This document shows, piece after piece, positions 18,001 to 24,000 of a DNA stretch of 43,190 nt; positions within the stretch are counted from its first letter, which is position 1, and each line of letters begins with the position of its first letter. This DNA is from Halobacteriota archaeon. Its GTDB lineage: Archaea > Halobacteriota > Halobacteria > Halobacteriales > Haloferacaceae. Location of the stretch: positions 1 to 43,190 of the forward strand of contig JBNJGG010000003.1 in NCBI GenBank assembly GCA_051747545.1, read 5' to 3'. Position numbers: made by a program.

Positions 18001-21000
18001 CCCACGTGGACGTCATTGTGCCGCGGGCTTGCAGTTGTGGGTCGTTGATGATTCCTTCGATGCTGTAGACCGGTGCCGCCGGTGCGTCGGCCTCCTCGAA
18101 GAGTTCCATCACCTCTTCTCGGGTTCGCTCGCCGATCCACGACTGGACGAGGTCGTCCACCGCTTCGTCGTGTTCGATGCGGGCGTCCATCGTCGCGAAA
18201 CGGGGGTCCTCGAGGATGTCGTCGCCGCCGACGACGCGCATGATGCGTCGCGCCGTCCCCTCGGTGGCCCCCGCGACGGCCAGCCAGTGGCCGTCCTTCG
18301 TCTGGTAGGTGTTGCGCGGCGACGAGGAGTGCGTCCGGTTGCCGTTTCGCTCGTGAACGATACCCTTCTGAGCGTAGTCGACGGCGTGCGCTCCCATGAA
18401 GGAGAACAGCGGTTCGAGCAGGCTCATGTCGATGCACTGGCCGCTTCCGCCGCCGACGTCTCGCCAGTAGAGCGCGAGCATCGCCGAGTAGGCCGAGAAG
18501 ATCGCGCACGTGAAATCTGCCAGCCCCATCGAGGGCAGCGTCGGCGGGCCGTCCTCCAGACCGGTGACGTAGGCGAACCCGCTCATCGCCTCCGCGAGCG
18601 TCCCGAACCCGGGACGACCGTTGTACGGGCCGGTCTGTCCAAACCCGGTGACCCGGACCATCACGAGGTCGGGGTTGATTTCCGAGAGCGTGTCCCAGCC
18701 GACGTTCCACCGTTCGAGCGTTCCCGGTCGGAAGTTCTCGATGAACACGTCGGCGTCTTCGACGAGTTCTTCGACGATAGCCTGTCCGGCCGGTTCGTGG
18801 AGGTCGACGCCGATGCTCTTCTTGTTGCGATTGAGCCACTTGTACGCGAGTGGCTCGGTGTACTCTCCGTGTGCGCGAACCGAGTCACCGAACTCGGGGT
18901 GCTCGATTTTGATGACTTCGGCCCCGAAGTCACCCAGAACCTGGGCGGCCATCGGTCCGGCGTACACTGAAGAGCAGTCGATAACGGTAATCCCGCTCAA
19001 TGGGAGGTCGCTGTCAGACATCGTCTGGAATAGTGAAGACCGAGGGCATATAGGTTTGCAGTGTCACGGCGTCGGAGTCGACGCGGGAGGGTCCGCCAGA
19101 CCTGACGCGTCGGTCAGGTGCGACTCGCCGGTGGTCTTTATCCATCTGCCGCCGTGTGACGGACCATGACGGATGACAAACTATCGGTCCAGCGAACCAC
19201 CGGCGTCCAGCCGGAGTCAGTGTGGCACCTCGAACTCCCCGACGTCCGCTTCGGGTTGAACGCGGTCGAAGAACTCCCCTACCTCCTCGAGACACTCGGC
19301 GTCGATGAAACCGCGAAGGGGCTGGTCGTCACCGACGAGACGCTGGCGGGTCTCGGGCACCTCGACCGGGTCCGAAGCGTACTGGAGGGTGCCAACGTCA
19401 CCGTCGACGTCTACGACGACGTGGAACGTGACCCCTCAATTGGAGCCTTTCGAGATTGCATCAAGGTCGTCCGCGAGCACGGTGGCGACGGGGGGTACGA
19501 CTTCTACGTCGGACTGGGCGGCGGGAGCTGCATGGACACGGCCAAGATAGCCAGCGCCATTCCCGTCAACGGCGGCGACGTCCTCGACTACGTCGTCGAA
19601 CCGTCGGGTGGGGGAGAGCAACTACGCACCGCGGGGCCGCCCCTCGTGTTGATTCCGACGACGGCGGGAACCGGCTCCGAGGTGACAGCCGCGGCCGCCG
19701 TCACCCTCGACGGTGGCGTGAAAGACGCCATCCTGAGCCCGCACACCCGGGCGGACGCCGCGATACTCGACCCCGGTCTCACGACCACGCTCCCGGCGGA
19801 CCTGACGGCCGAGACGGCGATGGACGCGCTCGGACACGCCATCGAGGCCTACACGACACCGCGGTACGACCAGCGGCTGCGCGAACCCGACCCCCTCGCG
19901 CGCCCCTCGCGCATCGGACGGTCGGAGACGACGGACGTGCTGGTCGAGAAAGCGATTCGGCTGCTAGTCAGGAGCCTTCGTCGAGCCGTAAACAACCCAG
20001 AGGACGTCGAGGCTCGGGCAGACCTGTTGCTCGGGTCGATGCTGGCGCGATTCGCGGGTAACACTGCGGGCGCGAACCTGTGTCACGCGATGGCCTACCC
20101 GGTCGCGAGCGAGTATCACACCCACCACGGCGAGACCATCGCCGCCTTAGCCCCCGCGTCCACCCTCGGGTACAACGTCGCGAGCGAACCCGAGCGGTTC
20201 GCACGCGTCGCGGAGTTCCTCGGCGTCGACGCGTCGAACACGGGCGCACGGGAGGCGGCCGACCGTGCGAGGGGGGCCTTCGTCCAACTGCAGCGCGACC
20301 TCGGCGTCCTCCCGAGCGGGTTGTACGAACTCGCCGGCGTCACCGAGGACGACGTGGGCCCGCTCGCCAAACGGGTCGTCGAGTCACAGCACCGACTGCT
20401 GGCGAGCAACCCGCGCCGGGTGACCGAGGACGCCCTGCGCGAGGTGTTCCGCGACGCGTTGTACAACTGGTGAGCCCCGCTGGCGGACTGGTGAGCGCTT
20501 TTGTATGAGGGTGCCCTACCCGTGAGAAGACATGGGTGACGAGGCTCCCGAACGCGCGGCTCGAATCGGTCGGCTCGAATCGCGCCCGGCGGGGTCCGAC
20601 CCCGAGGACCCCTACGACGACGTCGACGTCTCCGAGTTGCCGACGTGGTGGCGGCGAGCCGTCCGGGAGTTCGACGCTCACGGACTCCGACCGTACCGTC
20701 CGCCCCGGTTCGAGGACGACGTCGTGACCTACCCACTCATCGCGGACCTCGAGAGCGAACTCGGCGTCGACATCAGACTCGGGAGCGTCGACTCCGACTA
20801 CCGAGAGCGGTGGGAGGTGTGGGTCGACGACGCGCACGTCGGGGAGGTCGGACGCCACCGCTCGCCGGAGGGTTACACCGTCTACGAACTCGCCAGCGAC
20901 GAGTTCGAGCGACGGGTCCGAAGCGCGGTCGACGCCGACGAGTGAGACGGCCCAGTGCGACCGCCGGATGGACGGGAAGTAGCGCGTCCTGGGCGTGGAC

Positions 21001-24000
21001 TGAGACGGCCACGGGTCCACAGGTCACGGATCCACGCGAGCTTTATACGCAGTCGGTGTGGGTGTGAGACATGAGCAATAGAATCGTTCGACGGACGGCA
21101 AAGCCGCCGGCCGACGTAGTCGAAGCGTTCACCGATATCGGCTCGACAGAGGTGAGCGACGTCGTCGACGAGCACAACACCATGGACCCGGGAATCCGGG
21201 CCGTGACGGAAACCGACCACGTCTGTGGAACGGCGGTGACGGTTCGACTCAGAGACGAGAACAACAGCATGGTCAACGTCGCGTACGACCTCGCCGACTC
21301 CGGCGACGTCGTCGTCATCGAGACGGACGGAATGGCTCGGGCCGCCTGGGGGGACACGTACATCAACACGTCGACGGAACCGGGGGTAGCCGGCGGCGTC
21401 GTCGACGGGTACGTTCGAGATATCGGCGGGTTCGACGAGGCCGGATTCCCGGTCTTCAGCCGGGGGGCGACCCCGCGGGGACCGCTGAACGACGGCAGTC
21501 TGCCCGGTTCGGTCAACGTCCCCGTCACCGTCGGCGGCGTGACGGTCCGCCCCGGTGACATCGTCGTCGGCGACGAAGACGGGGTCGCCGTCGTCCCCCA
21601 GGAGCGGGCCACCAAGGTCCTCGATGCGGCCAGAAAGTCGCTGACCGATCTGGCGCACCTCCGCGAGCGTCTCGACGACGGAGAGAAGCCGTTCCTCGAA
21701 CTCAGAGGAGTCGCTGACCTGCTAGAAGACGTGACCCAGATAGACGAAAAGGTCGACTACGGCGCACGACCGTACCCCGAGTCTCCGGACCCGTAGTCGG
21801 GGACGACGACGCGTCACGGGCGCGAGCGCGACGAATAACGGACATCAATTCGAGTGCACGAATCGAGAGACGAGTCTCGACGCGTGCCGGGACTGCAGGG
21901 CGCGTCGGCTACACGACGACGTAGATGTCACCGTCGCGGACGACGACATCGTACGTCGGGAGCCTGAACTTCGAGTTGGCGAGGTGTTCGCCCGACCTGA
22001 TGTCGAACTCCCAGCCGTGCCACGGGCAGGCGACGATTCCGTCCTCGTTCTCGTAACCGAGTTCCCACCCGTCGTCCGTCATCGACGCGGTCATCGCCCC
22101 CGAGACGGTACCCTCGCAGGCGGGACCACCCTGGTGCGTGCAGTAGTTCGCGAGCGCGTAGTACTCGCCGTCGACCGTGAACACGGCTATCTCTCGGCCC
22201 TCGACGTCGACGATTACTCGCCTGCGGTCGCCGCGTTCGAGCGCTCCGACGTCGGCGACGTAGTGGAGTCGGTCGTCTGGAACGTCGCCGTCGCCGTTCG
22301 TGGTGTCTTCTGTCACGTCAGTCACCACTCGAATATCTCGGTCGCCGTGCCACCGAGCATGGCCTCGACTTCGTCGCCGTCGAACGAACTGCGGAGCAGG
22401 TTGAACATCTCGCTCGTGTGGTCGAAGTCGAAGTGGGGGTAGTCCGTCGCGAACAGCAGCGTGTCGGGCGCGTCCATCTGCGCGAGCATCTGGAGGACGT
22501 ACTGGGGGTCTTCCTTGAGTCCCTCGATAGGCTGACTCGAGTAGTAGAAGTCACGCATGTACTCGCTCGGAAGTTTCTCCAGCATCGGCGCGTCCTCGCG
22601 CATCCCGGAGTAGTCGTGGTCGAGCCGACGCATCAGGTACGGAATCCACCCGATGCCGCCCTCCTGGAACACGAAGTCGAGGTCAGGGAAGCGGACGGGG
22701 ACGCCCTGGAAGATGATGTCGGGCACGTTGACGATGTGCTGGACGACGTGGAAGATGTGCGTCGTGAGAAACCGGGTGTAGCCCTGGTACTGCAACGGGA
22801 AGTTGAACAGACCCGACCCGGTGGAGGTGTTGTGGAGCAGGACGGGGAGACCCGCGTCCTCGCTCGCCTCGTAAATCGGGTAGTACTGCTTGTTCCCGAG
22901 TGGGGGGCTGACGCCGCCGCTGGGGAACATCACGGCGGCGATACCGCGCTCGCTCGCTCTGTCGTCTATCTCTTCTGCGGCCTTCTCGGGGAGTTGCGGT
23001 GCGACCACGGTGGACCCGTAGATTCCCTGGTCGACGTCGACGATCTCGTCGAGCAGCCACTCGTTGTACGCAGTCGCGAGCGCGGCGGCGAGTTCGGGGT
23101 ACTGGACGGCACCGAGGAACAGATTGAGCGTCGGGGTGATGATGACACGGTCGAGGTCCAGCATCTCCATCGCGGCGACGATGTCCTCCCGCGTCCGGAG
23201 TTCGTCCGCGTCGGTTTTTCCGGTCGTCAGCGGGGAGAAGACCCCTGGCGTCGTGTAGAGATTCGAGTGAAAGCCCCAGTCGGAGGTCTGTCCTCGCCCC
23301 AACATCGTTCGGAAGGGGTCCTCGATGTACGGAAGGAAGTCCTCCTGGCGCTCGGTCAGGTGGACGTCGGTATCGACGATCAGTTCGACGTCGCTCAGTG
23401 AGGTCACAGAGCCTGTGCTAGCTTTAGCCATACCTGTTACCGTCACCGTATGTCATAATGAATCATTGGTATAGCACACCAGGTCCGCACGTAAACGAGC
23501 ACCGGTCGATGACGACGATGGTTTCGGCTCACTGCGGGTAGACGGTGTTCCAGAGGTCGTCAAATGACTGTTCTGTTCTGTCGGCCGCGCGTTATCTAGC
23601 CGCAGTCCGTTAGTAACGTATAAGACGAGTGGACGTGGACATGATTGCATGCGTGGTCTTCAGCTTGACCGAGTAATCGTTGCAACACCTGATATCGACG
23701 CGTCAATCGAGAAATTCTCGGACCTCCTTGGCCTGGAGTTCGGCGAGAAAATCGAAGGGCACACCAACCCCGACGCCGGTGAGCAGAGCCTCTTCTACTC
23801 GTACGGCCACCCCGGCATCGAGTTCATCCAGCCCCGCGAGGACAACGCAGTACAGGAGTTCCTCGACGAGAGGGGTCCAGGGATGTACGGCGTCGTGTTC
23901 CGGGTCGCAGACCTCGAAGAGGCCGTCGCCGAACTCGAAGAGAAGGGCGTCGAGCCCATCGACGTGGTCGAACACCTGGAGTACTCGCCCGAAGCGATTT

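What a model noticed while it worked through the whole genome (the two positions that open the first line are those of the whole stretch)
20532..23431. Unnamed third component of haloarchaeal ARO-Rieske monooxygenases
g00125 (paralog g00044, C1:45218-45580) is a family-less 120-140 aa protein that travels with the gene pair for an amidohydrolase-related dinuclear oxygenase (ARO) and its Rieske ferredoxin. It is a likely dedicated accessory component of these systems. The genome has four ARO-Rieske pairs (C1, C3, C11, C225), two of them with this gene.
Evidence so far: g00046, g00128 and g00429 carry the ARO DxH and DxPHxD motifs, and g00046 hits solved AROs 8sm7/8sm6 and AibH (E down to 3e-55, call 13). 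Of 29 homolog loci, 24 have the ARO or Rieske gene within 1.5 kb (23 each), in either orientation. Over the same 301 genomes the small gene is in 44 and the ARO in 48, with 40 in common. No Pfam or NCBIfam match; conserved PxWW and LRPYRPPRF motifs; confident model, pLDDT 85; 139 clusters at 50% identity.
(Added by a program. Inside this text positions count along the whole contig: contig position 1 is position 1 of the stretch shown here. "Call 12" and the like, gene names such as g00115 and contig names such as C1 are that model's own, and its searches are not shown. The text may have been shortened before it was handed on; [...] marks where a part breaks off. The agent that wrote the report below was given it as the finding of a first reader that could run no searches.)

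Follow-up and report, generated by a model that had tools for sequence, protein, structure and literature searches.

The report
Shared helper of haloarchaeal Rieske oxygenases
Salt-loving archaea that carry one subtype of a recently described two-metal oxygenase and its iron-sulfur electron carrier nearly always also carry this small protein of no known family, which likely docks on the electron carrier and would help feed it electrons, so it may be needed to make these enzymes work.

Summary
In 401 Halobacteria genomes, 55 of the 56 with a strong copy also have an ARO and its Rieske ferredoxin (rFd), and 61 of 62 copies lie within 20 kb of one. All three ARO-less genomes carrying a copy hold a damaged one. 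It is not a general third component, however. 43 of 98 ARO-rFd genomes lack it; it goes with three ARO clades only. Their rFds have an aromatic residue just before the first Cys ligand: 78 of 78 adjacent rFds, against 4 of 55 in genomes without the gene. This genome's C11 and C225 pairs are the non-aromatic type, which explains their missing copy. One MAG has 22 AROs, 14 aromatic rFds and a single unlinked copy, so it likely acts in trans and is not substrate-specific. It has no cofactor motif and no family or fold match, and was found only in Halobacteria. Best reading (0.4): a non-catalytic rFd-binding adaptor for electron supply; these loci lack the AibF-type reductase. Rivals: a maturation factor, or an ARO-binding effector. 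Binding is untested.

The parts
20532..20945 (+). Small family-less protein (137 aa, long subfamily), the proposed ARO-rFd accessory factor. Core is residues ~36-135: helix, PYRPPRF strand, then alpha-beta-beta-beta-beta-alpha
   Evidence: dN/dS 0.07-0.46 in 18 homolog pairs
20499..20506 (+). TATA-like TTTTGTAT about 30 nt upstream of the ATG; possible own leaderless promoter (inferred from recalled haloarchaeal promoter layout, weak)
   Evidence: sequence; family-wide 24 of 83 vs 6 in a control window
21071..21796 (+). RraA/HMG-aldolase-like gene inserted between the small gene and the rFd; a locus-specific neighbour
   Evidence: PF03737 E 6e-39; its cluster is in 6 of 107 compared loci
21909..22328 (-). 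AibG-like Rieske ferredoxin of the aromatic subtype (N-Y-C-T-H ... C-P-W-H)
   Evidence: PF00355
22322..23431 (-). Amidohydrolase-related dinuclear oxygenase (ARO); gamma1 Val, gamma4 Phe and gamma5 Phe fit the low-potential (Mn/Fe-type) class; gamma2 not mapped
   Evidence: criteria from PMC13154177

Best explanation
The small protein is an evolutionarily linked partner of one lineage of haloarchaeal ARO-Rieske ferredoxin monooxygenases and is likely a cofactor-free adaptor that binds the ferredoxin and would couple it to the cell's electron supply. Shown: linkage, clade restriction, matching trees, selection, decay without partners, no cofactor motif, and no AibF-type reductase in the haloarchaeal loci. 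Inferred: (1) it acts in trans on a feature shared by many pairs, since one copy coexists with 14 rFds and 22 AROs amid unrelated catabolic genes; (2) that feature is on the rFd, whose aromatic residue before the first Cys ligand tracks the gene; (3) its job is electron input, standing in for the reductase gene that bacterial loci carry, for example by bridging to the host [2Fe-2S] ferredoxin. My odds: accessory factor of these systems about 0.9; acting through the rFd about 0.55; electron-supply adaptor specifically about 0.4.
For: 55 of 56 strong-copy genomes have ARO plus rFd. 49 of 62 copies lie within 1.5 kb and 61 of 62 within 20 kb of one, in 7 different arrangements; among the 47 within 600 bp the rFd is the nearer gene for 31. 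Damaged copies occur in ARO-less genomes: G226 lacks the C-terminal hairpin with R110, G142 is frameshifted and truncated, and G404 is frameshifted. Tree distances correlate small-rFd 0.58 and small-ARO 0.54, partial 0.34 and 0.23, over 72 triplets. The short subfamily falls with one ARO clade even within multi-copy genomes. The rFd motif N-[YWFH]-C-x-H is in 78 of 78 adjacent rFds, 38 of 44 non-adjacent rFds in carrier genomes, 4 of 55 rFds from non-carrier genomes and 0 of 4 bacterial rFds. G090 and G166 have in-clade AROs, no small gene and no aromatic residue there. G403 has 22 AROs, 14 rFds (all aromatic) and one copy, sitting where syntenic relatives have small-rFd-ARO. An AibF-like reductase is annotated in 3 of 4 bacterial loci; there is no full-length hit in 255 partly redundant non-bacterial loci or in the own genome. 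Median Cys count is 0; basic residues are 11% against 7% in ARO and rFd.
Against: Clades D, E and F also lack a local reductase and do without the small gene, so electron input has another route in the same cells (43 of 98 genomes). G376 and G190 keep the aromatic residue without the gene. The aromatic residue may simply be an inherited clade trait; carrier AROs also have clade-specific features, such as an extra C-terminal segment near residues 340-350. The small-rFd and small-ARO correlations are close, and linked genes co-travel anyway. G402, G403 and G404 are MAGs and may miss copies or hold assembly errors. The gene evolves faster than the ARO in 16 of 18 pairs. Genomes are not independent samples.
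Confidence: 0.4

Rival explanations
1. Maturation factor: it helps load or repair the rFd [2Fe-2S] cluster or the ARO dimetal site, and acts transiently on many clients.
For: One copy per many pairs. Acidic small alpha/beta domain. Faint frataxin-like rows: Nqo15 2fug_7 Z 3.5-3.8, CyaY 4jpd Z 2.9-3.4; one member hits Pfam Nqo15 at E 0.03.
Against: Those Z values are at noise level. Frataxin_Cyay and Nqo15 HMMs find nothing in the own genome, which holds two copies. No conserved His or Cys; the only acidic residues kept in more than 85% of members are D62 and E74. It accompanies both hydrophobic-gamma1/aromatic-gamma4 AROs and Ser/Ala-gamma1, Pro-gamma4 AROs, so it is not specific to one metal class.
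Confidence: 0.22
2. ARO-binding effector or structural subunit, working like MmoB/DmpM-type regulatory proteins (recalled) or the non-catalytic AibH1 partner: it gates substrate or O2, or stabilises the oligomer or the ARO-rFd complex.
For: Adjacent to the ARO rather than the rFd in 16 of 47 close cases. Carrier AROs share clade-specific surface features. Small-ARO tree correlation 0.54-0.61.
Against: One copy for 22 diverse AROs fits a stoichiometric cognate subunit poorly. Loci with an AibH1-like paralog still carry it. No profile similarity to ARO.
Confidence: 0.22
3. It binds a small ligand (flavin or nucleotide) or handles a by-product, such as an aldehyde or reactive oxygen from uncoupled turnover, or it is a post-transcriptional regulator.
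For: Near-invariant W39, W40, Y55, W94 and R110 could line a pocket. Weak dsRBD-like topology rows, Z 3.5-3.8.
Against: No family or fold support. Neighbouring pathways are diverse, which excludes a substrate-specific step. It does not explain the rFd signature.
Confidence: 0.12
4. A hitchhiker on mobile catabolic islands with no role in the oxygenase.
For: Loci are patchy and often on plasmids; 13 of 62 copies lie more than 1.5 kb from the pair.
Against: It stays near the pair through 7 arrangements while all other neighbours change. It was not seen intact in any genome lacking the pair (3 of 3 damaged). dN/dS is below 0.5 in 18 of 18 pairs.
Confidence: 0.04

Closest known systems
Aib monooxygenase AibH1H2-AibG-AibF, Rhodococcus wratislaviensis (PMC7782822)
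   Same: ARO hydroxylase plus Rieske ferredoxin in a catabolic cluster; some haloarchaeal loci also have a motif-less ARO paralog like AibH1
   Different: The third component there is an FMN/[2Fe-2S] NADH reductase of 322 aa. Haloarchaeal loci show no such gene and instead, in three clades, a cofactor-free protein of 103-140 aa
SfbO-SfbR and the low-potential ARO/rFd pairs (PMC10811679, PMC13154177)
   Same: DxH and DxPHxD motifs, aromatic gamma5, adjacent rFd; halophilic archaea are named as ARO hosts
   Different: No accessory protein is described in the parts read; the word 'accessory' occurs 0 times in the main text of PMC13154177
Effector proteins of bacterial multicomponent monooxygenases (MmoB/DmpM/T4moD; details recalled, class mentioned in PMC7782822)
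   Same: Small cofactor-free accessory protein of a diiron-type oxygenase system
   Different: No Pfam or structural match; different oxygenase fold; the evidence here leans to the ferredoxin and to action in trans

Membership tests
ARO (window gene 22322-23431) | PF04909 fold with N-terminal D-x-H | tested here: met
   (D22-V-H24)
ARO (window gene 22322-23431) | C-terminal D-x-P-H-x-D/E | tested here: met
   D330-Y-P-H-F-D335
ARO (window gene 22322-23431) | O2-dependent hydroxylation at a dimetal site | not testable with these tools
   needs biochemistry
AibG-like Rieske ferredoxin (21909-22328) | C-x-H ... C-x-x-H ligands, small, next to an ARO | tested here: met
AibF-type ferredoxin reductase (small protein) | Flavin- and NAD-binding domains and [2Fe-2S] Cys motif, about 320 aa | tested here: not met
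   137 aa, no Pfam hit, median 0 Cys
AibH1-type non-catalytic subunit (small protein) | Amidohydrolase TIM-barrel homolog | tested here: not met
   hhalign probability 0.2% against the ARO alignment; length
BMM effector (MmoB/DmpM) | Sequence family match | tested here: not met
   no Pfam match at E 0.5; not among the 18 families hit by any of 129 members
BMM effector (MmoB/DmpM) | Fold | tested here: inconclusive
   best Z 4.4-4.5 overall; not listed among the top 50
Frataxin/CyaY/Nqo15 | Sequence family match | tested here: not met
   PF01491 and PF11497 find 0 matches in the own genome while control genomes ring
Frataxin/CyaY/Nqo15 | Fold | tested here: inconclusive
   2fug_7 Z 3.8, rmsd 4.7, 73 aligned; 4jpd Z 2.9

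The most novel reading that the evidence does not exclude
An unnamed protein family with an unmatched fold is an obligate, shared electron-input adaptor that lets reductase-less haloarchaeal ARO monooxygenases draw electrons from the host ferredoxin pool by docking on a marked subtype of Rieske ferredoxin; one copy serves up to 14 ferredoxins and 22 oxygenases in ARO-rich genomes.
Probability: 0.3. Interest if true: 0.75.

Novelty: new variant of a known kind. Interest (0 to 1): 0.58.

Why it matters
AROs are a newly defined superfamily of about 17,000 C-H-oxidising enzymes. How most of them get their electrons in vivo is still a model (PMC13154177), and the SfbO screen used ascorbate as reductant (PMC10811679). 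An ARO-rFd pair occurs in 98 of 401 sampled Halobacteria genomes. If over half of these genomes need an unrecognised helper, attempts to reconstitute their enzymes would fail without it. The one-residue rFd signature also predicts which pairs need it, which gives a direct experiment.

Tried and rejected
Fold searches gave nothing clear: Foldseek PDB and viral, no E<=0.001; VIA best Z 4.5 and 4.4; the N-terminal 57 residues were barely tested. PDB sequence search with the profile: best E 0.05, unrelated. ESM Atlas: only unnamed archaeal clusters, no usable named hit. Fusions: none among 7,992 longer candidates scored (weak evidence); three long proteins match only 25-63 residues and were not followed up. 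A divergent homolog beside the other pairs: best E 2.5 among the other 37 of 40 loci, none in 53 loci, and best E 0.088 in five whole genomes. Outside Halobacteria: not found in 301 genomes of a bacterial phylum, nor in the 254 own-phylum genomes of families other than f1-f7; 16 of 16 plasmid hits were archaeal halophiles, while ARO hit 124 mostly bacterial plasmids. G214's weak hit is in an unrelated protein; G219's 'TGA' is the normal stop. A Nuo51-like flavoprotein as universal reductase was rejected: it is in 3 loci and 1 of 5 genomes tested. A Mn-specific chaperone was rejected because both gamma types carry the gene. Promoter evidence is weak: the TATA-like excess is about fourfold for rFd genes too, and the sigma-70 scan does not apply. 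No sequencing run was listed. Earlier-findings look-ups were empty.
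Full report
Observation. The window (G000:C3) has a 137-aa ORF at 20532-20945 (+), an RraA-like gene, then a Rieske ferredoxin (rFd, 21909-22328) and an amidohydrolase-fold gene (22322-23431) on the minus strand. The latter carries both ARO-defining motifs of PMC13154177 and hits solved AROs at E down to 4e-54. The genome has a second small gene on C1 and four ARO-rFd pairs. The small protein has no Pfam or NCBIfam match, forms a closed family of 142 clusters, folds at pLDDT 90.5, pTM 0.78, and has no clear structural neighbour. It is under purifying selection: dN/dS 0.07-0.46 in 18 pairs, higher than the ARO in 16.

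Linkage. In 401 Halobacteria genomes the profile found 58 genomes: 56 with strong hits (62 copies), one with broken fragments and one spurious. ARO and rFd profiles found 99 and 100 genomes, 98 with both; 55 of the 56 have both. Of the 62 copies, 49 lie within 1.5 kb and 12 more within 20 kb of an ARO or rFd, in seven arrangements (I entered the 150 listed ARO places and the best 70 rFd places, so gaps are upper bounds). GTDB loci (19 of 26) and metagenome loci (33 of 43) agree. No other enzyme family recurs in more than 13 of 68 carrier loci; only IclR regulators (25) and ABC ATPases (23) recur more often. The three ARO-less genomes with a copy hold damaged ones: G226, G142 and the MAG G404. 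The ARO and rFd profiles were built from carrier loci, so their scores favour carrier clades; I therefore used trees rather than score cut-offs.

Limits of the link. 43 of the 98 pair-bearing genomes lack the gene, and no divergent homolog sits beside their pairs. In a tree of 100 AROs the gene lies next to three clades: the window type, a gamma4-Pro type and the C1 type. It was not adjacent to the other three clades, which include this genome's C11 enzyme; the C225 fragment is closest to the C11 clade. In-clade exceptions without the gene are G090, G166 and G376, plus G190 (rFd only). The trees match: Spearman 0.61 (ARO) and 0.70 (rFd) against a permutation maximum of 0.21 for 42 triplets, and 0.54 and 0.58 for 72 triplets. 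The ~103-aa short form forms a supported clade matching the C1-type AROs, also where one genome holds several types. Co-travel of linked genes contributes to this.

Which partner. The best discriminating rFd column is the residue before the first Cys ligand. It is Tyr, Trp, Phe or His in 78 of 78 adjacent rFds, 38 of 44 non-adjacent rFds in carrier genomes, and 4 of 55 rFds from 43 of the 45 non-carrier rFd genomes; it is non-aromatic in 4 of 4 bacterial rFds. C11 and C225 have Arg there. G090 and G166 have Arg and Val, but G376 and G190 keep the aromatic residue. This points to the rFd but may be plain inheritance, and carrier AROs have their own clade marks.

In trans. MAG G403 has 22 ARO matches, 14 rFds (all aromatic) and one small gene; G402 has 14 AROs, 11 strong rFds and 4 small genes. 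G403's copy sits between the same flanking genes that enclose small-rFd-ARO in L023, so it seems to have stayed intact when the pair left. With such diverse neighbours, a substrate-specific step is unlikely. MAG incompleteness is a caveat.

Mechanism. The characterised system takes electrons from NADH via AibF and AibG (PMC7782822). Three of four bacterial ARO loci examined have an annotated reductase of that kind. Those three as queries find no full-length counterpart in 255 non-bacterial loci or in this genome, where only their ferredoxin domain hits. The small protein has no cofactor ligands, but it has conserved aromatics and arginines and is more basic than its acidic partners. I infer a cofactor-free adaptor on the rFd that aids electron input (0.4). 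The main objection is that the other clades also lack a reductase and manage without it. A maturation factor (0.22) and an ARO effector (0.22) remain open. Binding was not tested.

Range and novelty. The gene was found only in Halobacteria among those searched; one GTDB contig is labelled Methylophaga but is probably misbinned. Literature searches showed no listing that describes such a protein. I read PMC13154177 parts 1, 2 and 4 of 9, sections 12-14 and keyword passages; PMC10811679 part 1 of 3 and passages; and PMC7782822 passages only. Supplements were not seen; Table S1 of PMC10811679 (ranked rFd neighbours) and Figure S12 of PMC13154177 may bear on prior notice. MmoB/DmpM details and the haloarchaeal promoter layout are recalled. 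Verdict: a real, apparently undescribed accessory family of one ARO-rFd lineage; a new variant of a known kind; interest 0.58.

Noticed in passing
L016:3173-4306, L020:7401-8534, L038, L039, L042, L051: A second ARO paralog lacking both metal motifs (D-x-[DG]-A-Q-V start) sits in ARO-rFd-paralog-small clusters; it resembles the non-catalytic AibH1 subunit.
   Followed up: partly
G403 and G402 (genomes of L015 and L003): Haloarchaeal MAGs of 2.2 and 2.9 Mb with 22 and 14 ARO matches, a large expansion of these oxygenases.
   Followed up: partly
L124:15229-16569, L102:9143-10687, L107:~18270-19000: A Nuo51-like FMN-binding protein, with a Fer4_15 ferredoxin in two of the three loci, near ARO-rFd pairs; a candidate reductase for some systems. 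Also one copy in G403.
   Followed up: partly
L068, L072, L074-L076, L080-L085: A clade without the small gene has longer rFds (149-168 aa) with an acidic C-terminal insertion, several with a CxxC or CxC motif.
   Followed up: no
L060, L086-L089, L097: rFd-paired amidohydrolases that lack the canonical D-x-P-H-x-D/E motif.
   Followed up: no
L259:4055-4354: In Phaeobacter a 99-aa hypothetical gene lies between rFd and ARO; unrelated to this family, possibly another accessory type.
   Followed up: partly
L005 (G401): Contig in a MAG labelled Methylophaga; the same bin holds haloarchaeal-type ARO and rFd genes, probably misbinned.
   Followed up: partly
window:11966-31690: Catabolic island around the finding: CoA transferase III, citrate-lyase-like enzyme, two cyclase-family genes, Fe-ADH, glyoxalase-like, OsmC, cupin, MFS and TRAP transporter genes; acyl-CoA synthetase and dehydrogenase judged from sequence only. 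Substrate not identified.
   Followed up: partly
window:21909-22328: The rFds keep a nearly invariant extra Cys (G-P-x-C-E-G) beyond the four cluster ligands.
   Followed up: no
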